Below, piece after piece: positions 1,995 to 55,300 of a DNA stretch of 64,000 nt. Made by a program: the position numbers and the translations under genes. Each line of letters opens with the position of its first letter. Position 1 is the first letter of the stretch. This DNA is from Eledone cirrhosa (taxonomy: Eukaryota): assembly GCA_964016885.1 (NCBI GenBank), contig OZ024741.1, positions 232,128,001 to 232,192,000 on the forward strand, in the 5' to 3' direction. The notes below the pieces were generated by a model. The model made no database searches and was not told the DNA's origin. It was given only the letters and a program-made list of their open reading frames with translations.

Positions 1995-2144
1995 TATATA
2001 TATATGTATATATATACTTAGGGTAAACATTGATGCAATTCAATTCAAGCACATAGCGTACTTTTTCCACATAGGATTGACGGAGTAAATATCGAATAAG
2101 GAAAAGCGAAGTAGTTTCAGATGTTCAAGTCCTTTAATAATAAT

Positions 2145-2218
2145 GCTGTGATATATATTTCAATGACGACACTGGCCACACTGTTCTGTGTGCGAGTGTC
2201 GTGACATCATCAGACAGC
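2145..2218 (-). ncRNA. Type I hammerhead ribozyme motif (unit 1)
   Basis: gctgt-CTGATGA-..acgacact/agtgtcgt..-GAAA-tatata-TC-acagc. Confidence 0.75.
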
Positions 2219-3441
2219 TTGTTACATAATAAGGTTATGTTTCCGAGGCAATCCAAATTGAATCGACATGGGAACGGACGAAGTGTGTGCTTTTAGGTAC
2301 TTCATCCGTTCCCCTGTGAGTACCAATTCACCCCCACCGGTCTGCGCAGGCGCATGTCCGAAGGAAGTTGACCATTAGCTACCGCAGATTTCAACGAAAT
2401 TCGCTTAGTCAGTTCACCCTATCAGCCAAACAATGACCCACTTAGGATGGTACCATATTTTACTGCTACCCATCCCGACTGTGGCAGTCAGCTGAAAGCC
2501 AGGGGGATGGGAGAGTGTTAGTTTTTACAGGTCACAATACTACCTCTCACTAAGCGTGGACAGTACGACTGACCATCAACTCCTAAGAGAAAAAAAATGA
2601 ATTCTAGGTATCATGGTTTTACATTGGAAGTTATGAGTGAGGGTAGGAAATAAAAATTAAAATCCTAAATCAAATATCAGAAATTATAGATTAAACAATT
2701 ACAAAATTAACAATTAGAAATTAAAAAAATGTTCAAGTGAGAATCCGGATTGAGGTGAGTAAAAGAATATATACACTGAAGTGAGTAACTAATATGGAGA
2801 GAGATGTTTAAGTAAGAAGTTCTGAGAGGGGTTCTAATGTCACAGTTACACTATCCACATATTGAACGATAGTGCCGTACATTAGAACGGAGGGTAAACT
2901 ACAGTATTCGAGGCAGTAGTCAATCTGGTACACAGTCATAATTTCCATCACATGGAAGAAAACCAAAGAAAAACAGACATAAAGTACACAAAAGAAAAGA
3001 ACCAATAATGAATAAATGCAAAAACACAGAGTACATATATGCAAAATGATCCATATGATTGTCAATTTGTCAATGTATAGATTGAATTGAGGGAGCTTCT
3101 GTTCAAATGCGATTTGTTGCAGCAAAATAGGGGTTTATCTTAGTTTTTGTTTCCGCGTATTTATCCTGCCGAAAGTTGTTATTATGTCCGTCCAGTGTCA
3201 GGGGTTTCCATCCCCATGGTAGAGGGAATTTCCAGGGGTAGCTCATGGTTGGTTCCTCTCTTCTCCACCGTATGGGTTACATCATAGAGCGCTCAACTAA
3301 TTGGAGCTAAATTCTTAGGGTAAACATTGATGCAAATCAATTCAAGCACTCAACGTACTTTTTCCACATAGGAATGACGGAGTAAATATCGAATAAGGAA
3401 AAGCGAAGTAGTTTCAGATGTTCAAGTCCTTTAATAATAAT

Positions 3442-3515
3442 GCTGTGATATATATTTCAATGACGACACTGGCCACACTGTTCTGTGTGCGAGTGTCGTG
3501 ACATCATCAGACAGC
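3442..3515 (-). ncRNA. Type I hammerhead ribozyme motif (unit 2)
   Basis: Identical to the unit 1 motif. Confidence 0.75.
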
Positions 3516-4738
3516 TTGTTACATAATAAGGTTATGTTTCCGAGGCAATCCAAATTGAATCGACATGGGAACGGACGAAGTGTGTGCTTTTAGGTACTTC
3601 ATCCGTTCCCCTGTGAGTACCAATTCACCCCCACCGGTCTGCGCAGGCGCATGTCCGAAGGAAGTTGACCATTAGCTACCGCAGATTTCAACGAAATTCG
3701 CTTAGTCAGTTCACCCTATCAGCCAAACAATGACCCACTTAGGATGGTACCATATTTTACTGCTACCCATCCCGACTGTGGCAGTCATCTGAAAGCCAGG
3801 GGGATGGGAGAGTGTTAGTTTTTACAGGTCACAATACTACCTCTCACTAAGCGTGGACAGTACGACTGACCATCAACTCCTAAGAGAAAAAAAATGAATT
3901 CTAGGTATCATGGTTTTACATTGGAAGTTATGAGTGAGGGTAGGAAATAAAAATTAAAATCCTAAATCAAATATCAGAAATTATAGATTAAACAATTAAA
4001 AAATTAACAATTAGAAATTAAAAAAATGTTCAAGTGAGAATCCGGATTGAGGTGAGTAAAAGAATATATACACTGAAGTGAGTAACTAATATGGAGAGAG
4101 ATGTTTAAGTAAGAAGTTCTGAGAGGGGTTCTAATGTCACAGTTACACTATCCACATATTGAACGATAGTGCCGTACATTAGAACGGAGGGTAAACTACA
4201 GTATTCGAGGCAGTAGTCAATCTGGTACACAGTCATAATTTCCATCACATGGAAGAAAACCAAAGAAAAACAGACATAAAGTACACAAAAGAAAAGAACC
4301 AATAATGAATAAATGCAAAAACACAGAGTACATATATGCAAAATGATCCATATGATTGTCAATTTGTCAATGTATAGATTGAATTGAGGGAGCTTCTGTT
4401 CAAATGCGATTTGTTGCAGCAAAATAGGGGTTTATCTTAGTTTTTGTTTCCGCGTATTTATCCTGCCGAAAGTTGTTATTATGTCCGTCCAGTGTCAGGG
4501 GTTTCCATCCCCATGGTAGAGGGAATTTCCAGGGGTAGCTCATGGTTGGTTCCTCTCTTCTCCACCGTATGGGTTACATCATAGAGCGCTCAACTAATTG
4601 GAGCTAAATTCTTAGGGTAAACATTGATGCAAATCAATTCAAGCACTCAACGTACTTTTTCCACATAGGAATGACGGAGTAAATATCGAATAAGGAAAAG
4701 CGAAGTAGTTTCAGATGTTCAAGTCCTTTAATAATAAT

Positions 4739-4812
4739 GCTGTGATATATATTTCAATGACGACACTGGCCACACTGTTCTGTGTGCGAGTGTCGTGACA
4801 TCATCAGACAGC
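4739..4812 (-). ncRNA. Type I hammerhead ribozyme motif (unit 3)
   Basis: Identical to the unit 1 motif. Confidence 0.75.
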
Positions 4813-5300
4813 TTGTTACATAATAAGGTTATGTTTCCGAGGCAATCCAAATTGAATCGACATGGGAACGGACGAAGTGTGTGCTTTTGGGTTCTTCATC
4901 CGTCCCCTGTGAGTACCAATTCACCCCCCCCCGGTCTGCGCAGGCGCATGTCCGAAGGAAGTTGACCATTAGCTACCGCAGATTTCAACGAAATTCGCTT
5001 AGTCAGTCACCCTCTCAGCCAAACAATGACCCACTTAGGCCTGTACCATAGTTTACTGCTACCCATCCCGACTGTGACAGTCAGCCGAAAGCCAGAGGGG
5101 ATGGGAGAGTGTTAGTTTTTACAGGTCACAATACTACCTCTCACCAAGCGTGGATAGTACGACTGACCATCAACTCCTAAGAGAAAATAAACTTAATTCT
5201 AGGTATCATGGTTTTACATTGGAAGTTATGAGTGAGAGTTGGAAATAAAAATTAAAAATTAATTGGATTGCCTCGGAAACATAACCTTATTATGTAACAA

Positions 5301-5374
5301 GCTGTCTGACGATGTCACGACATTCGCACACAGAACAGTGTGGCCAGTGTCTTCATTGAAATATATATCACAGC
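5301..5374 (+). ncRNA. Type I hammerhead ribozyme motif (inverted cap)
   Basis: gctgt-CTGACGA-...-GAAA-tatata-TC-acagc. N7 differs (tolerated position); two changes in stem II. Confidence 0.7.
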
Positions 5375-5412
5375 ATTATTATTAAAGGACTTGAACATGT
5401 GAAACTACTTCG

Positions 5413-5413
<1 letters not shown>

Positions 5414-5486
<73 letters not shown>
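5414..5486. repeat. (TA)n microsatellite (others near 14437, 15017, 17514, 21690, 22133, 42401, 42808; (CA)/(TG)n near 23378, 42862; (ACAT)n near 25170)
   Basis: Direct reading. Confidence 0.95.
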
Positions 5487-6149: not shown

Positions 6150-7358
6150 TTAATTTATTGTTATCTTTTATATCCTGAAGAGATACGGATGTGACACAAT
6201 ATCTACAAAGAAGTCAGTTTTGCACTGGTAATATCCGGTTTTTCACCACAAATGAATGTGTTGAAACGTAATAATAATAGCCCCACCCCCAACCCGCGGC
6301 TTTCTTAAAATTTGAATTTTAGGTGCTCTGCAACCCGAACTTCCTTTTATTCATTTAGTTTCTTTTCACTCCTGGTGAACAGAGTGCGGTAAAGTGCATC
6401 GAATTTAGTATATCTATAAATGGAAATAGGGAAGTATTACACTTCAACCTAATATATTGTTATACACATATATATGTGTGTGTACGTATGTCTGTCTGTC
6501 TGTCTGTCTGTATGTATATATATATATATATATATATACATATATAAATGTGTGTGTGTGTGTGTCTGTTTTATACATATATATTATAAAGTGAAATGAC
6601 AGCAGGGTAAATATGTTCAATTTCCTTTAATTTTTTATTACTGTAAACACTATGCATTTTTCAGTGGTCAGATTGCATAATAATCTGGTGAGCACTTCAT
6701 GGTTAGATTCTCACGGATCAAAACCTAGTGTAGTGTTCAATTGATAGGATCGTGACCAGTCATAACTGTGGGAACTCCCTGTCTAAAGAAACCGGCTTGC
6801 TAATTGGACAATGTTACTTGCACACCATTGGTGAGCTTACACACATCCTCGGGGTTTTGTTATTATTTTTTTACTTCATTTTATTTTATTTCTGTGTCGG
6901 GTAACACACGTCCACCACTCAAACACCTATCTTGAAAGCTCAAGGGCCCATGTGGCTGGAAAACGCACATACTGGCACCTTATCTCAAATACCCAACCCT
7001 ACACAGAGCCCCTTGTTGGCCTACATGGCGGTTGCTTGCACGCACAGATTTGGGGACTCAGTTTCTCAATGGGACAACGGCACATACAGAGTTCGATATG
7101 AGCTGACTACTTGCTCTTCGCATGGATGTGTATATACCAAAACATACACTTTTTTAGACGATACGGATGTGTATATACCAAAACATACCCTATTTACAAT
7201 TCAATCGATACACGACTTGATAGTTTTATGGCCCTAGCTGAGGACGATAGAAGTCGGCGGGTTTTGGCTGCTTAATCTTCATATGGTGGACAGGATTTTA
7301 GTGGGTGATCATCTTTAAACTTTCTCGCTCATATCAAGGATTTGAAGACAATTCGTTT

Positions 7359-7432
7359 TCACCTGACGAGTTCAGTGATAATCGTTCATCGCCGCAATAT
7401 CGATCTATCTCTTATTGAAACAGGTGACGTGA
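7359..7432 (+). ncRNA. Hammerhead motif in 5' pLTR (cleavage triplet mutated to GAC)
   Basis: tcac-CTGACGA-g...t-GAAA-caggtg-AC-gtga. Confidence 0.55.
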
Positions 7433-7729
7433 TTAAAATGATTGGAAATTTATACCTTGCCTTCGGATCTTTATTTTGATACAAATACTCCGTTTTACAT
7501 CATCTAGCTGTTCCCATAAATAGAATTGGAGATATACAAAAGCGTGGAGAACTTAATATTGCTCACAAAAGGTTATTGGACCGTATGACACAACCAATAA
7601 TACACCTTTCTACAAAACAACTTAAAGCTCCTAATTCTGTTGAGCACTTAATGCTGTTAAGCAAGGAATATGATGGAGAAATTTTCGGTGAATTCTTCGC
7701 TTAAGGACATCCTATGACTAGCATAAAAT

Positions 7730-10410
7730 AATTCACAAGGTTGGCGATAGGTAAATCGGACTCCTTTGTCCGAAGAATGCGTTGGAAGGCCTTCCATTTC
7801 GATAGAAGAACACCAACAAACCACCCAGGGAGGGAACGCGCGGTATCGAGGGAAAATTCAAATCCAGAAGAAACCCGCCGCACAATAAGTACCTGGAGGA
7901 ATTCGGGAATGAAATGGCTAACAAAGTTTCCAAACTTAAGTTTAGGAAAAACCCACTCAGGAGAAAAAGCTACTTAAGACGACTGAACGATGATCTAGGA
8001 AAATTAAAGAACTCAATCGGCATTCTGGTGCACGCAGATAAAACTAACAACCTGTACGATATGGATAGAGTAACCTATGATGACTTGATAATCAGAGAAC
8101 TTAGAAAAAGTTATAGGAAAACTACACAGGCCAACCTGGATTTAATCAACACGGAGGCCAATAGCGTCATGACTAAATTGGGTATTGAAAATAAAACTGA
8201 GCCCTTCCATCCTAGAATTCCGAGGATGTTATAGAAAGGCCACAAATTAAACTTTGAATCATCAAGACCTGTCAGGCTGGTAGCCCCTTCGAAGTCGGAC
8301 ATAGGAATCGTGAGTAAAATCAACCTTGATAAAATAATCCCCACTCTAGTTAGGAGATCGAAGCTTAAATTATGGACAGGAACTAGGGAGGAAATTAACT
8401 GGTTTGAAAAATCGCAGAATAAGAATAGCACTAATTTCATACAGTTCGATATCTCTAACCATTACTCTTCGATCTCTTCAACTATTCTAGGTAAGGCCCT
8501 AAACTTTGATAGCTTACACACCGACCTTACATCTGAAGAAATTAACATTATTCTCCTAGCTAGGAAAACCTTAATTGAGTTCAACGGTGACTTGTGGACT
8601 AGGAAAGATTGGCCGGACAATTTCGACATCACCATGGGATCCACGGACTCGGACCAGATGACGGATCTGGTCAGCCTCTACTTCCTCTACTGTCTCGGAG
8701 TGGAAATGCCCCACGTGGGAGGTGGCGCTTACCGTGACGACGTTTTGTTTACTGTATCGTTCCATAATAATAATATGGTAGAGAGGGTGAGGAAAAAAAA
8801 AAGCAAATTCTTCAACAACATAGACTTAAGTATAGTGTTTGAAGAAAACCTGAAGATAGTTAATTTTCTAGATTTTACACTTAACCTCAATTCTGGACTC
8901 TTCCAACCCTACCACAAACCCAACGAGAATTTAAATCTTGTCAAGGCAAAATCGAACCACACTAGAATAGTCATAAACGGTATTAACAAAAGCGTCTCTA
9001 GTAGAATTTCAGAACTATTTTCCAATGAAGATACATTCGATAGGATCTCGAATTACTATATAAGCGCCCTGGAACGCGCGGGGCATACCGAGGGAATCTC
9101 ATTCAAACGTCAATTAAATAGTAGTAGCAACATTTCCTGCGATAGCTCAGGCCAAAATAGTGACACTTTTGTTAACAGCAGGCGAGAGGCGAGGGAGGAT
9201 CAATATACACTTCATGTTGTATTGCCTCCTAGTCCCAATGTCGATGGTACCAATGGAAACAATCACCCAGGTACAAACACGAGGTCCGAGCACCGTACTG
9301 CCAGCGGAAATTGTAACCTTAATTGTAGAACTGATAAAACAACTGTTGAACGTAAAATGGAACGGGAGTCGGGTAGAGGGAATAGGGATAAATGTAGGAG
9401 GCGCATAGTGGATATAACCCCGGCTATCGAGGGTAATCCCAATAACTGCATGGGGGGTACACCGCTCTGGAGACTTGGGACGATTCCGAACACCGTCTGG
9501 ACACCCCAGGACACCATCGACCCACAGGCAGTTATCAGTTCTAATAGTTCAGTAGCAACCAAGGAGACAGGTAACACTAGTATAGATATTAAGAACAAGA
9601 GGCATCGGACCAGAAAAATCCTATGGTACAGCCCCCCATACTCCACCGGCCTGACCACGAGTATAGCTAAGCTTTTCTTTGGGGCCTTAGAAAGATACTT
9701 CCCTAGATCACATAGATACTATAAAATATTCACTAGGAATACCATGAAGCTGTCCTACTCCACAACCAGTAACATAGCTCAGAATATAGCTAAGATTAAT
9801 TATAGTAGACTTAGGACAACCCAAGGCGGGATGAGACAATGCAGAACTAATGACAGCTCTATAGATGAACGGACTCATACGCGTGAAGCGAGTCGGGTCA
9901 CCCCAACCCCTGGGAAATTACCTATAGAGCAGACAAGAACTGAGACCCGACACCAGATGTACCATGGTTCCTCTGGAACTACCCAGGTCGATAACAGAAA
10001 ATGTAATTGCAGGCAAACCGCAACTTGCCCCATGGCTGGGAAATGCCTCACCAAAAACATAGTCTACGACTGTAAGGTCTCCACTTTAGATAGAACCTTC
10101 AGGTATGTTGGGGCAACTGCCACTGAATTTAAGGTAGATGGTATAATCACCGCCATACCGTTAATAGAATTGATAAAAAAAATAGCACGGCGTTTTCTGA
10201 ATTAGTCTGGAAGCTTAAACAACAGAATATAGAACAATCCTTATCTTGGTCCAGCCTTATAACGGCAGCACGGACGTCTGTAATTTATGTATAGCTGAAA
10301 CATTTAATATTATTAGAGGAGGCCCCCTATTAATCAATAGGAGAGCGGATGTTTTCAGCAACTGCCAACATAGAAGCTCGAAAACCCTCCGCGAGATTTT
10401 TGGAAAGTAA
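7730..10410 (+). pseudogene. PLE RT + GIY-YIG endonuclease ORF, frameshifted (resembles the Hydra clade)
   Basis: MRWKAFHF, HADKTNNLY, FIQFDISNHYSSI, FDITMGS, YRDD, NFLDFTLNL, ILWYSPPYS, CNCRQTATCPMAGKCLTKNIVY..RYVGATATEFK, spread over 3-4 frames. Confidence 0.9.
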
Positions 10411-11701
10411 CCTACCACTAACTCCTCCCTTTTTACCTTAGCCATAGAGTTCTCTCAATTAGCAAAAAACAGACAATCACACACTCAGGTAGTAGACAGC
10501 TAAGATCGTTTGCGCACTTACAAACGGTACTCGGTTTTTTGCACAGAGTTCTCACACCCGAGTGCATATTTACCACTACTTTAGAATACCTAGTTATTAA
10601 ATAGTGACAATGATTACACACTCATTTAAGACCGATTACGCTCATTCACCATTACTTTTGAATACCCTAACTATTGAGTTTTCTCGGTTAGTAAATTGTT
10701 AGACGTATTACACACTCAGTTAAGACCGATTACGCTCTTTATACATGACTCTACACACAGTACCCGGTTTCTTTAGACACGGAGTTCCCACAGTTATGAC
10801 TGATCACGATCCCATCAATTGAACACTACACTAGGTTTTGATCCATAATCATCTAACCATGGAGTGATCACGGTTGCTGATTGGACACCGTTACTTGCAC
10901 ACCATTGGTGGGCTTACACACATCCTCGGGGTTTTGCTATTCTTTTTTACTTCATTTTATTTTATTTCTGTGTTGGGTAAGACACCTCCACCACTCAAAC
11001 AACTATCTTGAAAGGCCAAGGGCCCATGTGGCGGGAAAACGCACATACTGGCACCTTAACTCATATACCCAACCCTACGCAGAGCCCCTTGTTGGCCTAC
11101 ATGGCGGTTGCTTGCACGCACAGATTTGGGGACTCAGATTCTCAATGGGACAACGGCACATACAGAGTTCAATATGAGCTGACTACTTGCTCTACGCATG
11201 GATGTGTATATACCAAATCATACACTCTTTTAGACGATACGTATGTGTATATACCAAAACATACACTATTTACAATTCAATCGATACACGTATAGGAGAA
11301 CATTGAACTGAATTTACTTGCGTTTGTATAGGGTTGCGGTTGACCCAATTTCTCCTTTCCATCGTCAAATTGAGATTTGACCAATATAACATTTGTTGTT
11401 TTGTAAACTAACTTTCGGTTAATACTATGTTGGTATATGTATTTTTTTTTTCTTCGACCTCACGTCGGTGTGAGTGTGTGTGTACCCACTGCAATTCTAA
11501 AGATTTGATGTTGAGATTAGACCCGTCCAGCGTCTTTTACTGCTATTGAGAGATATAGACTTGATAGTTTTATGGCTCTAGCTGAGGACGATAGCAGTCG
11601 GCGTGTTTTGGCTGCTTAATCTTCATATGGGTACAGGACTCTAGTTAGTGAACATCGTTAAATGTTATCCCTCATACCAAGGATTTGAAGACAATTCATT
11701 T

Positions 11702-11775
11702 TCATCTGACGAGATCAGTGATAATCGATCATGGCCGCACGGTCGATCTATCTCTTATTGAAATATGTGTCGTGA
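11702..11775 (+). ncRNA. Hammerhead motif in 3' pLTR (GUC site)
   Basis: tcat-CTGACGA-g..atcgatc/ggtcgat..t-GAAA-tatgtg-TC-gtga. Confidence 0.65.
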
Positions 11776-11906
11776 TTAAAATGATTGGAAATGTATACCT
11801 TGCCTTCGGATCTTTATTTTGATATATATATATATATAAGCATATATGATGATTTCTTTGTATGTATTTAATAGGTGTATTAAATATCTCTCTATTCAAT
11901 CTTTAG

Positions 11907-14629: not shown

Positions 14630-15009
14630 TACCTCGTTTTACTAGCTTCAAGGACGCGTCTATATGATGTGAGAAAGCATCCCAAAAGGCGGACGGGGAG
14701 ATAGTCACCTGATACAACGGTCAAGAAACAGAGCTAAGCCTCTTATAACCCCGAAGAAAATACCACGGAGGCGGAGGGGGTATTTATATCGAAGCCGTAG
14801 AAGAGGTGGTGAAGGAGGCGAGAAGTATGAGTAATGGCAGCTTTCCAGCAGTCACCACACTTCAAAGATTACTCGACCAGAGGGAGTTATGAACAATATA
14901 TTTAAAAACACACAGATACATGCGGACACACACATATACATGAATGCATCCACATCCAACCGTGAGTTAATGGTGCCAACCTTACCGATATGTATCTGTG
15001 TGTTTCTAA

Positions 15010-19982
<4,973 letters not shown>

Positions 19983-20582: not shown

Positions 20583-21380
20583 AATTGTATTCAAAATCAA
20601 TAGTAAATTCAGTTCTATGACCTTATTTTGAGGTAACTGAAGAACAAACCAATCAAATGATTTTTTTGCCTTATGATGTTAAGATGAAATATAACTCACT
20701 TTGGTTGAGCTCATGATCTTTGAAAGGAATAGTTGAATGGTGTTAAAAATAGAATTACTATAAAGAACCTATGAAGAAAAGGGGATTGTTATATTGATAG
20801 TGGAATGTAGATGGTGGAATGAAGTTAAAAAGGAATGGAAAAATTAAATGTTGAGTTGTGTTGTATGGAATTTTTAGGTGAATATAAATAAGTAAACAAA
20901 ATATACTGAAATAACTATGATAAATAGAGATAGGTAAATTAATGGTCATAACTAGGAAGGTTAGTATTTTAAAAGATGAACATTATAATAAGATAATAAA
21001 ATATAATAATATAATAATATAATATAATTGTTTCTACTTTTTGGCACAAGGCCAGCAAAATTCACAGTACATTACTGGTACTTTATTTTTAGGAAATATC
21101 TATATGCGTGTGTAATTAATACATGCATACATTTATTGTTTCAAGACGCAGGATTGATAATGTTTTTGAAAATACTAATTAACCCACGTGTATATTATTT
21201 TACTTTCTTGTCACTCGTGATTGCCTCCCTTTTCCGCTTCGTGACGCTATGATATTCCTCAGTCTAAAGACTGCTGGAATTTCAAATTTGGCGGTCATTT
21301 GATGCGTGAAGGGACGACTTAGCGGACACGAAATATAACTGCGGTAAGAAATTTTTTCTTATATCAAAGATTAATGGGCA

Positions 21381-21503
21381 TCCACTGATGATTTATAAGT
21401 GTCTACCTGCATATGTTCTTACAGAAAAATATGTTAGGCTTCTACATAAACCGGAAATTTTCTCCCAACTTGTAGAAAACTTATAATGAAACAATTGTTT
21501 GGA
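21381..21503 (+). ncRNA. Type I hammerhead ribozyme motif
   Basis: tcca-CTGATGA-t-ttataag...cttataa-t-GAAA-caattg-TT-tgga. Confidence 0.8.
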
Positions 21504-21686
21504 AAGAGAGATATATTTTAATTTTAATTATATCTGATATAAAATAATACAACTGGCTTTCCACAAAATACATATAGTTAGCACCCCAAACACAAAATTG
21601 GGATTATACTAACGTATATCCTAATGTTTGTTGAGTGAGGTGGTTACCAGTCAGAGGTTAGCTTAAAGCTTTCTCTGTTATTGTAT

Positions 21687-21733
<47 letters not shown>

Positions 21734-21735
21734 AC

Positions 21736-21820
<85 letters not shown>

Positions 21821-21991
21821 CATAAACGGTGAAAGCCAATAGCGATACACCGACCAATTTCCAACTCACTCAACAAACATTAGGAAATACCGGAGTATAT
21901 TCACAAGTAAACGTTTGGAGTGCTAACTATATTGTATTGTGTAGATAAGTGGGTGTATTATTTTATATGAGATATATTAAAGATCTCATTT

Positions 21992-22114
21992 CCCAAACGA
22001 ATCGTTTCATTGTAAGATTTCTACATTGTAGGTGAAAATATACCAGGTTTTGTAGAAACCTGTGTAAGATCAACGGATTCTTATGCAAGCTGGCTCTTAC
22101 AAATCTTCAGTGGG
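21992..22114 (-). ncRNA. Type I hammerhead ribozyme motif, diverged homologue of 21381-21503
   Basis: ccca-CTGAAGA-t-ttgtaag...cttacaa-t-GAAA-cgattcg-TT-tggg. Confidence 0.8.
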
Positions 22115-22132
22115 TGCCCAATAATGTTAATA

Positions 22133-22207
<75 letters not shown>

Positions 22208-22242
22208 TTAAAAGAATAGAGGTGTAACGCACAAGTTATTAA

Positions 22243-22611
22243 ATATTGGTAAACGGAATAGAAAATGCTGACAAATTGTTCACAGTGAAAAATAGTTTAA
22301 TTAGGAATAAGTGAGAATTAGTAATTGTATTGGTTAGTATTCAGTTTTGGTTTTAAGGGTTGCGCATTTCTAATGCTTTTAAAAAACAATTTTGAGATAG
22401 AGCGTCCGTGATGTTTGCTCTGATCAGAGCAAACATCACGGACGCTCTATCTCAAAATTATTTTTTAAAAGCATTAGAAATGCGCAACCGGTAAAACTTA
22501 AAACCAAAACTGAATACTAACCAATACAATTACTAATTCTCACTTATTCCTAATTAAACTATTTTTCACTGTGAACAATTTGTCAGCATTTCCTATTCCG
22601 TTTACCAATAT
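22243..22611. repeat. Spacerless near-perfect palindrome, ~180-bp arms, centre 22423/22424
   Basis: ...gatgtttgctctga|tcagagcaaacatc...; one ~7-bp indel and about 2 mismatches. Confidence 0.95.
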
Positions 22612-22655
22612 ATATAGATATATATACATACATTCATACATACATACAAACACAT

Positions 22656-35100: not shown

Positions 35101-38093
35101 CACTCAGTCAATTCCGTCTTAGGAGAGATGGTGCGTTAGCAATTCTTTCGACACCTCTTCTACTGTCCTGAAAATAGAGGATTTGCTTATTCTCTAAGTG
35201 AACCGTCAGTTTCTGAACGCTGGGTTTTCGTTCATTGAGATGAAAATCGAACAATCTCCAGCAAGCTTCGCTATATCCAATCGAGCGAGCATCCTGGAAC
35301 CTGCCAACTTCATCTCCTTGGTTCGCTTCCTCATTCCTGACATTGATCATTGCCCGATCATGACCTTTGTAAACATATTTGAATAGATATTTGCAAGCTT
35401 TCACTGAGCTACAAATTTCCACATTAATATGACAACGATATTTCATAATCAAATATGGATTGAATGGCACAACCCATTGATTTGTAACCTGTCGACCGTT
35501 TACATTTTCGACCAAATTGCCATCAGCAGGCGACCGTCTTCTGTATGAGGGATGAGTATCCCCAGCGTTCCAGGAAGTGTTCGTGACAAAAGATTTCGGA
35601 AAGTACTTACTGCATTGGCCATTTTTCATGCAAGGCGCTTTCCGATTTGCCACTCCGCATTGGTTGTGCACCATTGACTTTGCCACCAAGTTGCGTAGTG
35701 CCTCATTCTCCGGCAGTTCAGCACACACAATGCTGTCGACATCCTCAGCACATCTCAATTTGCAATATCTATGTAAAATGATCAGCAAATGTGCATGTGG
35801 CAATCCTCTTTGTTGTAATTCAATTACGTATGTAAAAGCAACTATACCTCCAAAGATTGCCTCTTTTTCCACATCATCCATTATTATTTTCAGATATCCT
35901 TTGAATACTCTTGCCACAATATGAGGACGGTCCTTTGGCTGTTGTCCTGGCAAAAGTGCATCCTTAATATCAATCCATTCAGGATTGCATGTAACCGTTA
36001 TAAACAAATCTGGCTTTCCAAACTTTCTGACAATAGCCATTGCATCCTGATAGCAAAAGTTCATATATCTCGGGCCGCCGAGGAACGACGATGGCAAAAT
36101 GATGCGTCGACCAATTTGCTTGTAATTGGCATCATCGGCTGTTATCGCATCCTGTATATTATTATACAATTCAGCTCTGACATGTTGCTGATGTGTAGCT
36201 ATATAATTTAGGCTTTGATTTTCGATCTTTGCGAATGCCATACAACAGTATTCCTGGAACAATATGCTGGCTTGAAATAGCGCATTTCTCTGTTGATTCT
36301 TCTCGTTCAAATGGAAAGCGTAAAAGTCGCGAATCGAATTATTGTGTCTATTGCCACCTCCCTGTTGATGTTGATTCTCATGATCATCTAAATGAACAGA
36401 CATGTTCCATCCTTTTTCACCTTTTGGGAATAAAAGAACATAATGCAATGGATCGTATGCTCTATTTGACTCATTGATAGTCTTGAGACCAGCATCTCTG
36501 CGATTGAGGACGATATCGCTCGATCCAGGCTTATCGCCCATCAACACAGCAACTTCACGAAATCCTTCAGGGGCATTATATCGCCGTTCGTGTTGATTCC
36601 TTGGCACTGCGTCAACCTTAATCACCAATGTTTGCTGCTGAACATTTTGCAGTTCAGCCACCAACATGAAATCCATATCATAAGGATTACACTGTCTAAG
36701 CCATGATTGCAAATAACGGAACAAATCACTTAACCTTTGCCGTTCAAGTTCAGTTATAATTCCTGGCAACTTCATCCAACCGACCCTGATATCCTCCTCC
36801 GATTCACTATAATCTGGATCGTTAACGTAAATTTGAGCGAATCGAGGCCTCTCTCCTGGGGTAACTTCTAAATTACCGATACAATGATACAAACGGCCTT
36901 GAATGACTACATTCGGTTGCCATGCTCCACTCTCAAACATCTCACTAACTCTCTGCGATGCTAAAGCTAATGAATTGTTAATTTGCCGCGAATATTTGCG
37001 CACTAATCTACCTCCGTCTCCTTGATCACCCCACATACTTAGCATTTTAAACTCCTGTGACTCCTCATCATCCGGCATATTCGCAAGGGTTCTAGTTGAA
37101 CTGCTCCTTTATGACAGCACATTGTGGTCCACGTCTTTTCGTGCCTCCAAAGCAATGCTCCACAATGTAGACACTCTGCTCGTCCACCAATCTGAAAATG
37201 ACACGGTTGCCACGAACCATTTTTAATATCATCCGTTCGCCTTCTGGTCTCTTTACTGGAATGAGGAGCAGTTTGGTGACACATTCTCTGAACTTCTGTA
37301 TTGCGCTGGCGCTGTTCAGTCAGCTCCTCTTCATCCATCGCCGCACGCCGTTGCTGCTGAATTCCGGCCATCTGTTGATGATGCCAGCCAGTTCGTCTTC
37401 AACCATTGCAGCACGCCGTCGCTGCTTGGCTCCAGTGTTTCGTTGGCGTTGTTCAGCCAGCTCCTCTTCATTCATGGCGGCACGTCTTCGCCTCTGAAGT
37501 TCAGCGTTCCGATGGTGCTGTTCGGCCCGTTTTTCTTCATTGCTGGCTGCACGCCGTCGCCGCTGTAGTTCACTGTTTGATAAAGTCGAATTGCTTTTAT
37601 TATCAGTATTCATTTCGAGCAATGTCAAAATATGGCACAATAATAAATATAAAAGATGTCCGTCAATGTTAAGAAAGGTCCCTATTTACTCCCTTCACAA
37701 CTCTGTGTATGTTAGACTGACATACAGGCACACAGACAGATAAACTGCGTGGCGATTGTGGAACGCTACACACATACACGCATGGAAACGCGCACACGCA
37801 CGCAAACTTATACACGCGCACACTCACACATGTTGATAGTTTTTACTTTCTGTGGAATGCTGCACGCACGCACACACACATAAATATACGCGCACGTACA
37901 TACACACGTACACATGTTAATAGTTATTGAACACAGCGTTCACACTCTCCCCTCTCACTCCCTCATTCGCATTATGCATATTAATTTAAGTTTGGCGTGG
38001 TTGAGGTTACCGGTGTCGTTTGAAACCTATGAACCAATGATAATCGAGAATTATGACACACGGAATACTGACGTTCTTGAAATTAATAAATAT
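32146..38093 (-). mobile_element. Composite Helitron: autonomous-type RepHel region plus a short terminal unit (32146-~32491)
   Basis: 3' end acccgggcgaaggtgggtacgtcagCTAG|T. The host repeat is split at 32145 and resumes at ~38095. The 5' TC is not cleanly seen. Confidence 0.8.
33050..37640 (-). pseudogene. Helitron Rep (HUH-Y2) / PIF1 helicase ORF with several stops and frameshifts
   Basis: CLHCGALLW..CCHKG finger; PDLFITVTCNPEW; VIELQQRGLPHAHLL; KYLFKYVYKG; FIDSPGGTGKTF; GGDFRQVLP; LCNGTRL; AFSMTVNKAQGQT; FSHGKLYVAASRV. Confidence 0.97.
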
Positions 38094-49374: not shown

Positions 49375-52300
49375 CCTGATTCATGAAGGGCTGTAAGCGC
49401 CTGGAGACATTCCAGTTTCCAAGCGCTACCCCTCTGTCTCCGCTTCTCCCAGGACTGTAGCTCCGTTAAGGATACGTGCTGGGGCAACATGCATCGTGTG
49501 AACGGTGACCACACCAGTTCACCGATTAGAAAGATATAAAGAGATGTAGATGTCGTAGCCTAAGCGCATGTCTTCGCATCATTAGCCACGGCATTCCCAG
49601 TCCTCCACGCAGTAGATGGGTCGCCTCACCATCGGAAGGCAACCATTCCACAATAATTTGAAGAGCAAACGCTCCAGTACATTCAGATCGGGTTTAGAAC
49701 AAGACACAACGGTGAAGCGGATTTAGATGGCGGACGCGATGAATGTGTTCGCCACCTCCGCCCTACTTTTAAAGGACAGATTTCCCTCGGCCTATTTTTG
49801 TGTGAGATTGGCCACTCTGTCAACTCATCCCGATTTCTGTCAATTTATAAATCAGAACCAAACCATACAGCAAGTAATTTAACGGGCCCGTCCTTCCAGC
49901 CCTTGACAACACTGTTAGATTGCATGGACTTGCCTCTCCGTGTTCATTGTTGTAGGCCCACGGAGTTTTCCTTGTTGATTTTCGCTCCTATCAGCGCTTC
50001 GTATATTTTCAGAGCAGTGCCGATCATCTTAATGTATTTGGTGTTCGACTCTACGACTGTGTCGTCGTCGGTATAATCTGACATAGATCTCCTATGTCCT
50101 AGTTCATGCAGGATGCCTCTCAATGTATCTAATGTTTGTAGAAGTGGCTTGAAAGTAAATACATATATCAAGGACAAAGAGGGGATAGCCCGTGTGGACC
50201 GAACGAATGATGTTGAACGGTTCCGAGAGGTAACCGTTCAATCTGACCACAAATCAGATGTCACTATGCATAATAATAATAATAATGAAATATTGTGTAC
50301 AGTACTCAGGTGCACTACAACTCATAAAAAATTGTATGTATAGTACATAGGGTAATGTACAAACATCAGGAAAATGAACAGTGCATGAGTCATGATACAC
50401 ACATATCTGCATGTGTATGGAAGGGGTACATCAGGTGTAGTTTTGGCGTATTTCGGGAAGCATGAGTGTCTTAAAGGATGCAGTGTCTCGGCAGCTAACA
50501 ACTGATGCAGGCAGTTTGTTCCATGCTTCAGCAACTCTGAGTGTGAAAGAATGTCTACGAAAGTCATGGGAGCTGTGCTGTTTTCTTATTTTGTAGGCAT
50601 GTCCACGTGTGTTAGACATATGGAGATCAAAAAGGTGCTCAGGGTTGCAATTGGCGAGATGGTTAATAACTTTGTGGGTATTTACCAAGTCCATTGCCAG
50701 GCGTCGGAGCTTCAATGAATCCATGCCCAGGGAAGCAAGGCGTTCAGAGTATGGTAGGTGTCTGATGGAGGGTATGCGCTTGGTTGCACGTCTCTGAACA
50801 GTTTCCAGGAGGTCAATGTTCTGAGACAGATAGGGGTTCCACACTGATGATGCGAATTCGAAGTGTGGTCGTACCATAGCTGTATACAGTTTTAAATAGA
50901 TGGCTGGAGAGCGGCTAACAAAGGTCTTGCTGAGTGATGCCAAGACACCCTCGGCCTTCTTGACAATCTTAGAGACATGCTTTGTCCAACGCAAATCGCT
51001 GCTGACAGTAATGCCCAGGTCACGTTCACAAGAGGACATCTTGATATCAGTGTTGTGGAAGGAGTATGTGGACGCTGGATTTTTCCTCCCAAAATGCATG
51101 GTGGTACACTTGTCCACAGCCAGCTTCAGTTGCCAGTCTGTGGTCCATTGCTGCATTGTGTCCAGGTCTGATTGTAGGAAAGAGTTGTAGATTTCAGGAT
51201 CAGTCCTTTTGATTTCAAGGTACAGCTTGATGTCATCTGCATATTTCAGTACCGTGGCATTCTGTAAGTTGGCATCTATGTCATTAATATATGCCACAAA
51301 CAAAAGGGGACCAAGAACAGATCCCTGTGGTACACCAGATGACATCTCATATGGTGAAGAATGCTGTCCTAGAACCGTGACTACCTCTTTTCGGCTGAGA
51401 ATGAAGGATTTCAACCAGTCGAAAAGATCATCCCTCACACCCATTGCAGAGAGTTTTGCCATAAATCTTTTGTGTGGAACAGAATTAAAAGCCTTAGCAA
51501 AGTCAGGGTAAACAACATCCACCCATGAGCCGCTATCAGTGATCCGGGTGATGTCTTCAAGGAACTCGATAAGCTGATCACAGCAGCTGGAGTTAGGGAT
51601 AAATCCAAACTGTGACGGCCGGATGAGGCTGTGAGAGCTCCAGAAGTTCCAAAGTGTTTCTCTGACACAGGATTCTATCAGTTTGGCCATACAGCTAGTA
51701 AGACTGACGGGATGATAGTTGACAGGTGACATGCGGTTGCCCTTTTTAAACAGGGGAATGACACTAGCAGTTTTCCCCTGCTCCGGAGTAGCACCATTGT
51801 TGAGACAGTATTGAAAGAAGAAAGAAAGCTGGTACAAAAGGAAATACCCGCCACGTTTGAGAAGCAGGTATGTAACAACATCAAGACCAGGGGAGGCATA
51901 GTTGCGCTTATTCTTAAGGTATCGTCGCAACATTTCAGGTGTAAATTCCATAGTTGTTATGGAATTTGATATTAGAGATGGTGGAGATGGTACATTCTGG
52001 TTTTCAACTGGAAAAATACTTGCATAGCACTTAGCAATGAGTTCTGCGCATTCTTTGGGACCGTCAGTGATCTGGCTTGTGTGGGGATTGCGAAGAGGAC
52101 CAACTGGAGAGTGAGCTCTCTGCTTTGAATGAACATATTTCCAGAACATCTTACTGTCAGGATTGGTTGGTATGCACTGTTCAAATTCAAGCACTGCCTT
52201 CTTTGTCACTTGCTTCAGATGGTTAGAAGATGTATTCCGCTTTTTTCTGTTGGCGTCTGATTTATGCAGTTTATATTCCTGTTCAGCATTCTGACGTTCT

Positions 52301-55300
52301 TTCCTGGCAAGTTGGACCGCTGAAATTTCCCAAATTGCACTTTTGGGGTGGGGTTTTTTCTGCTTACGTGGCACCGATGCTGCACACGCTATCCATATTG
52401 AGTCCAGGATGCTCTGGAGTATAGTGTTCACATCTCCAGAGTTATACATCTCATGCCAGTTTGGGCGCTGTAGCTCAGTGCAGTACAAGTTCCAATCTGC
52501 TTTCTTCCAATCAAAGCAAGCAGATTGGAGATGGTTCTGGTTTTTGTTGCTGCCCGCAAGAGCCAGATTGGCAATGATGATAGCATGATCAGAGTTGCCT
52601 AGAGGTTCCTCAGTAGTTCAACTGATAACCACTTCAGGAGTAGTGGTGAAGATCAGGTCCAAAGTGTTGTCACCTCTTGTTGGAGAGGTGACTACTTGTG
52701 ACCAGTTTGAGTCCAGCACTAGTTCAAGGAAATCGTTTGCACCTTGTGGCCAACGAAAGGTTTCCCAATCGATCTCAGGATGATTGAAGTCACCTGCAAT
52801 AAACACATAAGTGGCTGTTTTCTTGGCAGCAACTCTGAGGATATCGCAGAGCTGTGTGTCCTGATGGTAGTTTGGGGGGGGGGGGCGATAGACAACACCA
52901 AGCAGAAGTTTTGACATGGTCATACGTATATCACAGAAAAAAACTTCTACCTGTGATTCGTTCAAATCAACGCAAGGAATTACAGAAAAGTTTGAACGAA
53001 CGTAGACCATCACACCACCACCACGGCGATTAATGCGGTCCTTGCTGAAAAACCCATCACAGAGTAAGGAATGTGCCCATGTTTCCGTGACTGTCATGAA
53101 GTCAGGGTCGATGCTTCTGACGTAGGAGTCAAACAGATGTATCTTGTTGCATAAACTGCGAGCATTTAAGGACAACAATTTGTACCCTACTTGCAGTTTA
53201 TGATGGTGTGTAGAGGGTGGCAGGTTGTTCTGGTTTAGTTTCCCAGAGTTGTTGCAGTTTCTTCATTGCCAGTTATTGTGGGTAGAGCACACTCAGACCA
53301 GCTGGTATCTCTCTTCCACGTTTCACCAGTCTTAACAAACCTCCAGATCTGCCCATCAACACGCAGACTAAAACTTTCATGTTTTAACATCTATCCGTTC
53401 TCTACAAACCGGCTCGAAGCCTGCTGCTTTGAGGACTGCCGACAGGTACCGATGTTCTACGCTAGCAAATGCTTTAGATTGATCTAAATTGATCAGTGCT
53501 TTATCCGTGTCATGTTCTTTAGGGGCAACCTCTATGATGTATCGCATGATTTGGAGGTTGTCGTGGATGGATCTCTTGGGAATAGCACATTCCTGCGCCT
53601 CTCCCACCAGAACACCAACGATAAGCGCCAACCTCGTTGCCAACATCTTGGCCAAAATTGTTATCTTTGCATTTCACAGAGATATAGGCCTAAAATTATT
53701 TATATTGTCCCCCTTGTTCAGGTCTTTTCTTAGCAGTGCCACCACTCCACGCTTCATAGAACTGTGGATTCTTCCATTCTGCTGCCAGTTTCAATGGACG
53801 TCTGCCAAGAGGACACAAAACAAGTCTGGCATATAAATATAAAGCTCGTAGGGCAGACCATCTAATCCTCGTGCAGCCAGCTATTGCATCCTGTAACTGA
53901 ACGGCTGTTATTGGCTTTTCGAAACACTCCGCCTCTGTCACCGACAGCCGCGACAGGCCGTCGAGATAGGTAGTGAAGTCCATCTCACAATCCAGCTCAC
54001 CACCGCTCCCGAAAAGTCGGCCAAAGTGCTTCTGAAAAGTCGCCCACATCTGCTTGGGATCGAACATCATGCACCCGACATAGTGTTCCAGATATTTGTG
54101 TCTTTGTTGCCATGATGCCCCTCTGCCACACGGGCCCAACATGCTTAACATTGAAGAATTGGTCTAGGACCATTCTTGCTGTAAGAACGTCAGTTCAGAT
54201 GGCTTTGTTAATTGCCTCTTCTAGACTATCACTTGTTCCATCTCTACTCTAGTTTTCTCTATTGCTACAGCTTTGCTAAATCGTATTGATTCTACTTTAA
54301 TTGCACTTTTCAGGGCATACCATCGCTTGTTGTTGACGATTGCCTCTATTAACGTAACGCCCGCTTAACTAATTCACTAATACGGTCTCTGTAGGCTTTT
54401 CGCATTGGGGATGATGCGTTTAGTTTCCAGTAACCGGGCCCTTGCCTATGGAGCCGATCTATATCTACTACACCTGTCAGAAATGTGTGGTCTGTGTATT
54501 CAACTGTTTGAAATTATGGTCAACTTATCCTATCACTTTCTACTTCCCTACAGAATACCCTATATAGATAGGATCTGGATGACGCGATGCGGTTTATCCA
54601 TGTCCAATTTGGCACATTCGTAAAATCTAGTCGATATCTGTCAGAGAGTTGAAAGTGTTTGAGCAGATTTTTGAGGCTTCTACATGCTTCTGCTCAATCC
54701 GTTAGTCCCACACAATCTACGCGTGCATCTTAGATACCGTTCCAAGTGCACAGTAAGACTAATGAATGAGATGTTCCCAGAAAGGTTTCCAGAGGTCCGA
54801 AGAAAATATTTCCTCCTGCCCCTGTAAGAGCATAAAAAGCAATTAATCTGAATTCGTGCCCTCCTCCGCTGGTCATCTCAAGCACCACCAATTTACTCCC
54901 CCTCCCCCCGGGTCCAGGAATATGGTCCGTATTGCATGATCCATGCCCTTCCGGAACAACACGGCAACTCCACCTCCAGAACCTGGACGGCTTGGAGATG
55001 CGTACACCACGTAGCCACCGAAAATGGGTGCAAAGTTTCGTGCGTTGAAAACTCTTGTCTCGCTAATGGTCACCACATCTATATACATTGACCTTAGTTA
55101 ATTGAGCAGGAGCCTCTGTATCCAGAATGACCCCACGCCCCGTGTATTGACTCTACCTAATTTGAGTGAGGCCATGATTAATTTAGAGAAGATGAAAGTG
55201 GGAAAAGCCACTTATCTTAGATTTGGGGGAGGAAGGCCAGTAGTCGCATCCATCAGTGGTCTCTTGTGGGGCTCAAAAGCCGAAATATCTATATAGATTC

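What the first reader, a model, noticed from the sequence alone, without database searches (positions are those of the whole stretch)
21381..22114. Inverted pair of diverged hammerheads with compensatory changes and a U10.1-U11.1 junction
Seen: stem I tcca/tgga vs ccca/tggg; stem II ttataag/cttataa vs ttgtaag/cttacaa; stem III caattg vs cgattcg (still self-complementary); N7 U vs A. The ~80-nt stem II insert diverges freely. This is direct covariation evidence for selected RNA structure. Both place U-U at 10.1/11.1 (canonically G-C), as does the HHR of the 1297-bp array, and both cleave at GUU. Inference: a lineage-specific HHR variant with a large stem II domain.
Basis: partly seen in the sequence, partly recalled or inferred. 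Interest (0 to 1): 0.72.

Follow-up and report, generated by a model that had tools for sequence, protein, structure and literature searches.

The report
Large-stem hammerhead retrozymes in TA repeats
The two facing hammerhead motifs are partial copies of sister subfamilies of an abundant non-coding repeat, likely inserted separately into the same TA run, whose predicted self-cutting RNA carries an unusually large folded arm kept by paired mutations and is likely mobilised by Penelope-like retrotransposons.

Summary
Both type I hammerhead (HHR) motifs are real (21381-21503 +, 22114-21992 -). They are not a functional pair. Each is a 5'-truncated copy of a different subfamily (A 741 bp, B 698 bp) of a non-coding, partially tandem retroelement, lying tail to tail in one (TA)n run. 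The genome has 2478 exact pattern matches (control 0). 92 of 103 sampled insertions end at one fixed 3' site followed by TA; the A-B pair occurs in 1 of 100 loci. Covariation holds. The ~94-nt stem II arm does not diverge freely: it is a four-way junction with compensatory changes. U10.1-U11.1 is already published (axolotl retrozyme; Perreault 2011) and does not define the lineage: G-C sister subfamilies sit between A and B on the tree (AU p=0.003). Best reading: a non-LTR retrozyme, likely dimer-cleaving, likely mobilised by (TA)n-targeting Hydra-clade Penelope-like elements, some of which carry similar long-armed HHRs. A stem I-II pseudoknot is a candidate (strong in 18 families, not replicated in 27 hold-out copies). 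Cleavage, expression and the exact partner are untested.

The parts
21091..21692 (+). 5'-incomplete copy of retrozyme subfamily A (monomer positions 123-741 of 741), ending at the family's fixed 3' site
   Evidence: 92% to a natural monomer from L028; other copies are 95-97% identical over the HHR region
21381..21503 (+). Type I hammerhead A: stem I, CUGAUGA, U10.1.U11.1, 8-bp stem II opening into a four-way junction, palindromic CAAUUG stem III, GUU site after 21499
21393..21486 (+). Stem II domain (94 nt): basal helix plus hairpins P2a and P2b with compensatory changes between subfamilies
21375..21405 (+). Candidate stem I-stem II pseudoknot: UGGGC (21375-79) with the junction (21401-05; GCCCA in most copies, GUCUA here)
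   Evidence: no covariation within the family; hold-out test negative
21693..21813 (.). (TA)n run shared as target or tail by both insertions
   Evidence: (TRF 21690-21816)
21814..22138 (-). 5'-truncated copy of retrozyme subfamily B (positions 374-698 of 698), 3' end in the same TA run, 5' end at the TA run 22136-22206
21992..22114 (-). Type I hammerhead B: CUGAAGA, U10.1.U11.1, 93-nt stem II domain, CGAUUCG stem III, GUU site at 21996

Best explanation
The locus holds two 5'-incomplete copies of sister subfamilies of a non-coding, (TA)n-flanked tandem repeat, likely inserted separately into one TA run, and each carries a type I hammerhead with a covarying four-way-junction stem II that is predicted to self-cleave, making the family a likely non-LTR retrozyme moved by Hydra-clade Penelope-like elements. 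Shown: copy structure, fixed 3' end, TA flanks, partial tandems, covariation, G-C/U.U switching, and intact-ORF Hydra elements in the genome, some with similar long-armed HHRs. Inferred mechanism: tandem loci are transcribed; neighbouring HHRs pair through the palindromic stem III and cleave as dimers; unit-length RNA is probably ligated to a circle; Hydra GIY-YIG endonuclease nicks (TA)n and its RT starts at a fixed internal site 182-193 nt downstream of the cleavage site, then runs for variable lengths, sometimes past one unit. The window's two copies are under one unit long, so likely dead on arrival. A transcript through both is predicted to form a long hairpin that buries the ribozymes.
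For: Repeat families: 2393 and 1064 first-look candidates; 2478 exact pattern matches vs 0 control. 92 of 103 insertions in 100 loci end within 12 nt of the fixed 3' site followed by TA, 75 have TA directly upstream, 35 exceed one unit (9 overlapping loci and 1 without a hit left out of 110). No PLE ORF was seen joined to a copy in the part's output that was shown. RNAalifold on 42 of 118 copies recovers the HHR and both hairpins unaided; 11 of 33 pairs have double changes. Named structure: 95.8% of cells paired, covariation 0.205 vs shuffled 0.100 (0/500) and 0.03-0.06 when slid. Stem III stays (near-)palindromic: CAAUUG, CGAUCG, CGAUUCG, CGAGUCG, CGGCCG. Circular monomers fold below shuffles: -178.9 vs -137.9+/-6.3 and -161.8 vs -137.9+/-5.2 (25 shuffles each). 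An intact 808-aa ORF has RWK, DKT and CxCx5C, the Hydra diagnostics, and that clade inserts in (TA)n (PMC8557442 section 11). Its pLTR HHRs have a ~79-nt stem II with A.A (26 of 31) or U.U (5 of 31). A second family has U.U, CAAUUG and GUU downstream of Hydra EN remnants. Internal RT initiation is shown for a PLE in PMC11167929. A U.U axolotl retrozyme HHR cleaves weakly as monomer and much better as dimer (PMC7229834 section 15).
Against: No cleavage or expression data. No autonomous element sharing the A/B terminal sequence was found: the only match to Hydra pLTRs is one 16-nt stretch of HHR core. The HHR fold is 3-7.5 kcal/mol above the nested MFE for six single copies, and the window copies alone fold no better than shuffles (z -0.95, -1.25). 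Most double changes fall on the single branch path between A-type and B-type subfamilies (A vs D: 0; C vs E: 1), so independent events are few. In a recent preprint only 1 of 9 predicted Xenopus retrozyme dimers cleaved in vitro (10.64898/2026.07.22.740005). Most Hydra-family HHRs here carry a C at position 4 (CCGA), so the partner's own ribozyme may be impaired.
Confidence: 0.78

Rival explanations
1. The inverted pair is one functional unit (a single element with inverted HHR-bearing ends, or a selected sense/antisense ribozyme pair).
For: The arms face each other and are about 71% identical. PLEs often form inverted arrangements (PMC8557442).
Against: Each arm is 91-97% identical to dispersed copies of its own subfamily but about 71% to the other arm. 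A-B occurs in 1 of 100 loci. The usual PLE inversion is at the 5' end (as in L064), whereas this pair is tail to tail. The read-through fold buries both HHRs (198 of 300 pairs span >250 nt).
Confidence: 0.04
2. The elements are solo or tandem pLTR fragments of an autonomous PLE that I did not sample, not a self-standing retrozyme lineage.
For: Fixed 3' end, variable 5' truncation and TA flanks are PLE signatures. Sampling covered about 110 loci of thousands with 1.5-5 kb flanks.
Against: Full 700-1000-bp monomers repeat head to tail with no ORF between them, in A, B and C. The non-coding 5' 420 nt are homologous between A and B (69.5%).
Confidence: 0.12
3. The HHR is catalytically vestigial and the fold is kept as a protein-binding or packaging element for the PLE RT.
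For: Weak U.U junction and GUU triplet; A.C mismatch tolerated in 8 of 31 B copies; PLE HHRs cleave poorly in vitro (PMC4209133); Hydra-family HHRs here mostly carry U4C.
Against: 0 of 11 core columns differ between any subfamilies compared, against 21 of 52 unpaired columns for A vs B. Only N7 and the H of NUH vary, and H stays U, C or A. Position 10.1-11.1 moves only between G-C and U.U, the mismatch reported to support the most activity (PMC3088659).
Confidence: 0.1

Closest known systems
Non-LTR (animal) retrozymes, especially axolotl Rtz_353 / HHR_Amex2 (PMC7229834; read section 15 and passages)
   Same: Non-coding tandem units with one type I HHR each; short palindromic stem III; U.U at the base of helix II; low GC.
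   Different: Units of 700-1000 bp rather than about 330-390; 94-nt four-way-junction stem II rather than a short hairpin; mostly dispersed 5'-truncated copies with a fixed 3' end in (TA)n; circular RNA and cleavage not shown here.
PLE-derived retrozymes of vertebrates (bioRxiv 10.64898/2026.07.22.740005; read parts 1-3 of 5)
   Same: Non-autonomous, HHR-bearing, monomer/dimer/multimer copies; units within its 51-972 bp range except subfamily C (~990); proposed PLE mobilisation.
   Different: There the retrozymes match PLE pLTRs by sequence. Here the link rests on architecture and target site; only a 16-nt core match was found.
Hydra-clade Penelope-like elements (PMC8557442; read section 11, passages, supplement rows)
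   Same: (TA)n targeting, fixed 3' end, partial tandems, HHR near the 3' end. Intact members are in this genome and a broken one is in this window.
   Different: The finding has no ORF. The published Hydra-1_Obim HHR has a short stem II (8-nt loop), unlike the ~79-nt arms seen here.
Pseudoknotted and U10.1-U11.1 natural hammerheads (PMC3088659; read passages)
   Same: U10.1-U11.1 already reported; stem I-II pseudoknots reported for all three HHR types.
   Different: The passages I read do not describe a covarying four-way-junction stem II in a high-copy animal retroelement.

Membership tests
Type I hammerhead ribozyme | Core C3UGANGA9 / G12AAA / NUH with three helices, stem I open | tested here: met
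Type I hammerhead ribozyme | Canonical G10.1-C11.1 pair | tested here: not met
   U.U in A and B. This is a published tolerated variant, and G-C occurs in sister subfamilies, so it is not treated as excluding membership.
Type I hammerhead ribozyme | Helices supported by covariation | tested here: met
   R-scape itself not available
Type I hammerhead ribozyme | Stem I-stem II tertiary contact | tested here: inconclusive
   Candidate pseudoknot: 11 of 18 families >=5 bp vs 2.3 for swapped partners; 3 of 27 hold-out copies vs 3.0; no double change within the family
Type I hammerhead ribozyme | Self-cleavage | not testable with these tools
   needs an in vitro assay
Non-LTR retrozyme | Non-coding tandem units, each with a type I HHR | tested here: met
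   L003, L027/L028, L029, L067, L074, L093-L098; the window copies themselves are sub-unit fragments
Non-LTR retrozyme | Expressed as linear and circular monomer RNA | not testable with these tools
   no RNA data obtained; predicted circle stability only
Non-LTR retrozyme | Sequence relationship to a PLE pLTR | tested here: inconclusive
   only a 16-nt core match to Hydra-linked pLTRs in 7 loci compared
Hydra-clade PLE (autonomous) | ORF with RT, CxCx5C linker and GIY-YIG EN | tested here: not met
   no ORF in A or B monomers; met by the separate element L231
Hydra-clade PLE (autonomous) | (TA)n target and fixed 3' end with variable 5' truncation | tested here: met
   92 of 103 insertions

The most novel reading that the evidence does not exclude
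This genome holds a radiation of thousands of Hydra-PLE-driven retrozymes whose hammerheads carry large structured stem II domains locked to stem I by a Watson-Crick pseudoknot, toggle repeatedly between G-C and U.U at 10.1-11.1, and are missed by Rfam and short-spacer descriptors; the same blind spot would explain the 'half-core' hammerheads reported for cephalopod Naiads, so those elements may not lack ribozymes.
Probability: 0.3. Interest if true: 0.7.

Novelty: new variant of a known kind. Interest (0 to 1): 0.52.

Why it matters
The inverted pair is incidental and U.U is known. What is new is the family: a high-copy animal hammerhead with a covarying four-way-junction stem II, natural G-C and U.U sister versions, and PLE-type insertion signatures. 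It offers a ready-made natural test of whether U.U tunes cleavage. It links retrozymes to a specific (TA)n-targeting PLE clade with a fixed internal RT start. It also suggests that counts of animal HHRs made with short-stem-II descriptors are underestimates: 1153, 5475 and 934 further long-arm pattern matches against controls of 18, 153 and 241.

Tried and rejected
Rfam scan of the window: no HHR family hit, only hairpin and microsatellite-driven miRNA matches. Single-copy folding of the window HHRs: not significant. Search for an autonomous partner: widely spaced pairs (L091, L092) were local duplications, not pLTR-ORF-pLTR; A/B vs Hydra pLTRs gave one 16-nt match. Pseudoknot hold-out: the windows fixed were applied to 27 other single copies (many had failed the stem filters, some are autonomous-type or possible chance matches) and gave 3 of 27 >=5 bp, sum 89 vs 90.0 swapped, P=0.62; so the pseudoknot is not general, and the windows were chosen after seeing examples. 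5' ends show no pile-up at the cleavage site, but the sample was selected for HHR-containing copies and is not decisive. First tree needed 3 label changes because L033 (which carries an extra insertion in the tail) and L265 (probably likewise) grouped on a long branch; both rows were dropped. Sequencing runs: no RNA holder listed; two contig runs of unrecorded kind laid on the locus added nothing on expression. Earlier scan findings: none for this genome. Literature searches for a long or branched stem II, or cephalopod HHRs listed no paper describing this architecture; I saw most of those only as listings. Luense et al. 2017 (PMC5785218) is not held, and the supplementary figures of PMC4209133 and PMC7229834 and the preprint's supplements were not seen; they could contain similar motifs. 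The idea that A/B are Naiad termini was considered and not tested; Naiads are described as remnants in cephalopods.

Full report
Observation. Both motifs are present as described. HHR A (+) runs 21381-21503 and HHR B (-) 22114-21992. Each has an intact type I core, U at 10.1 and 11.1, a 93-94-nt stem II region, a short stem III and a GUU site. My strict scan of the window found only these two; Rfam reports no hammerhead in the window. The arms are about 71% identical over roughly 320 nt and meet at a (TA)n run. The HHR of the 1297-bp array also has U.U, but cleaves at AUC, has a shorter stem II and has no BLAST hit to A or B.

What the pair is. Each arm belongs to its own repeat subfamily. The best 40 matches to A are 95-100% identical (2393 candidates) and those to B 91-100% (1064 candidates). 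Natural tandem loci give monomers of 741 bp (A) and 698 bp (B), homologous along their length (74% of aligned positions; 83% over the HHR). A pattern search gave 2478 exact matches against 0 for the reversed control and showed further subfamilies C (~990 bp, with a duplicated first 254 nt), D, E and B'. In 100 non-overlapping loci (of 110 examined; 9 overlaps and 1 without a hit left out) there are 103 insertions: 92 end within 12 nt of one fixed 3' site followed by TA, 75 have TA directly upstream, 35 are longer than one unit, and 5' ends are scattered. Inverted arrangements occur in 3 of 100 loci: this A-B tail-to-tail pair, one B-B tail-to-tail pair (L046) and one head-to-head D-D pair (L064). 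The window pair is therefore best read as two separate insertions into one palindromic TA run (inference). Both copies are under one unit long, and a transcript across both is predicted to form a long hairpin that buries the ribozyme (198 of 300 pairs span more than 250 nt).

Structure. On 42 copies chosen by hand from 118 to cover the subfamilies, RNAalifold recovers the hammerhead unaided, with an 8-bp stem II opening into a four-way junction with two hairpins; 11 of 33 pairs show double changes. For the named structure, 95.8% of cells pair and the covariation score is 0.205 against 0.100 shuffled and 0.03-0.06 slid (these shuffles ignore relatedness). At subfamily level, A versus B differ at 10 of 34 pairs: 7 double changes that keep pairing, 1 single change that keeps it, 2 unpaired in one group; P=2e-5 for random placement; 0 of 11 core columns and 21 of 52 unpaired columns differ. 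Stem III stays palindromic or nearly so (CAAUUG, CGAUCG, CGAUUCG, CGAGUCG, CGGCCG), which fits dimer cleavage as described for animal type I HHRs (PMC4209133, parts 1-2 read). Limits: most events lie between A-type and B-type groups (A vs D 0, C vs E 1); the stem II G-C pair is not fixed in B (17 G-C, 8 A.C, 5 A-T of 31); the copies were selected for likeness or for an intact core; and the HHR fold is 3-7.5 kcal/mol above the nested MFE in six single copies.

The U.U junction. It is published: Perreault et al. report a natural U10.1-U11.1 and note it is the best-tolerated mismatch (PMC3088659, passages), and the axolotl retrozyme HHR_Amex2 has it, cleaving 22% as monomer and much better as dimer (PMC7229834, section 15). 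It also does not define this lineage. Sister subfamilies of the same element carry G10.1-C11.1 with the same arm and 3' end. On a 51-row tree (two long-branch rows dropped) the label needs 2 changes, and monophyly of the U.U copies is rejected (AU p=0.0027; the test was run after I had seen the first tree). So A and B got U.U independently, or one reversion occurred; the tree is unrooted. Other long-arm families in the genome show both states as well: 1153 U.U and 5475 G-C matches with 40-70-nt arms, against controls of 18 and 153 (the two patterns differ in stringency).

Candidate pseudoknot. UGGGC just 5' of stem I is complementary to GCCCA in the junction above stem II. It is conserved but shows no double change within the family, and both window copies are degraded there. 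Across 18 families, 11 have at least 5 Watson-Crick pairs between the same two windows with different sequences, against 2.3 for swapped partners (sum 89 vs 61.3+/-4.0, maximum 81 in 3000). The windows were chosen after seeing examples, and a hold-out of 27 other single copies showed no excess (3 of 27, P=0.62). Stem I-II pseudoknots are known in all HHR types. I rate this contact plausible for this family and unproven.

Mobiliser. The monomers have no ORF. The genome holds many Hydra-type endonuclease matches (59,269 first-look candidates, 150 scored) and intact 808-aa ORFs with RWK, DKT and CxCx5C, the diagnostics of the (TA)n-inserting Hydra clade (PMC8557442, section 11). A broken member lies in this window at about 6797-11830. 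The pLTR HHRs of the 808-aa family have a ~79-nt stem II with A.A (26 of 31) or U.U (5 of 31), mostly with C at position 4. Another family has U.U, CAAUUG and GUU downstream of Hydra EN remnants and often ends about 215 nt later in TA. A shares only a 16-nt core stretch with it, so the partner is inferred from target, architecture and ribozyme type, not from sequence. A fixed internal start of reverse transcription is shown for another PLE (PMC11167929, part 1 of 4 read). Because the fixed 3' end lies 193 (A) or 182 (B) nt past the cleavage site, every copy that includes the whole HHR needs a template continuous across that site: a ligated circle or an uncleaved precursor. Copies longer than one unit and stable predicted circles favour the circle (inference).

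Comparison and verdict. It works like, and by the testable criteria belongs with, non-LTR retrozymes (PMC7229834; preprint 10.64898/2026.07.22.740005, parts 1-3 of 5 read). Cleavage and circular RNA could not be tested, and that preprint found activity in only 1 of 9 predicted dimers. It is not an autonomous PLE. What I did not find in print (searches; one key paper not held; several supplements unseen) is the covarying four-way-junction stem II, the repeated G-C/U.U switching within one retrozyme family, or the Hydra-type insertion signature. The published octopus Hydra HHR has a short stem II, and two cephalopod Naiads are listed with 'half-core' HHRs, which might be long-arm motifs; I did not test that. 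Verdict: new variant of a known kind; interest 0.52.

Noticed in passing
window 6797-11830: Broken Hydra-clade PLE (ORF 8235-10205 with CxCx5C, frameshifted in the EN) with direct pLTRs, each holding a long-stem-II HHR (about 7360 and 11706); the 3' copy ends in (TA)n.
   Followed up: partly
window 2011-5414: 1297-bp tandem array (about 2.5 units, - strand) with a U.U / AUC hammerhead, ending in TA, plus an inverted partial copy at 5263-5414; no PLE protein match; probably another retrozyme family.
   Followed up: partly
window 22207-22615: TA-flanked foldback with a near-perfect 100-bp central hairpin (22374-22473); similar foldbacks in 8 other fetched loci; no HHR core found.
   Followed up: partly
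window 21001-21089; L024, L033, L036, L042, L056: A short common repeat (hits in 64 of 272 loci) abuts copy A here and interrupts retrozyme copies at one homologous site (B position 555 in four copies, A position 597 in one), suggesting a target preference.
   Followed up: no
L201-L238 (e.g. L231:2844-5267): Young Hydra PLE family with intact 808-aa ORFs whose pLTR HHR mostly reads CCGAnGA (U4C) with A.A or U.U at 10.1/11.1.
   Followed up: partly
G000:C1:156425779-156438442: Long 457-bp tandem array of another U.U long-arm HHR family, switching strand in the middle.
   Followed up: no
window 14999-17612: PLE fragment (RT end plus GIY-YIG-like ORF 15952-16827) between ~1-kb inverted repeats.
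   Followed up: no
window 35108-37108 and 50431-53262 (- strand): Helitron Rep ORF and a LINE with APE and RT domains.
   Followed up: no
L066-L068, L077, L090, L093-L097: Subfamily C monomer (~990 bp) carries an internal duplication of the first 254 nt.
   Followed up: no
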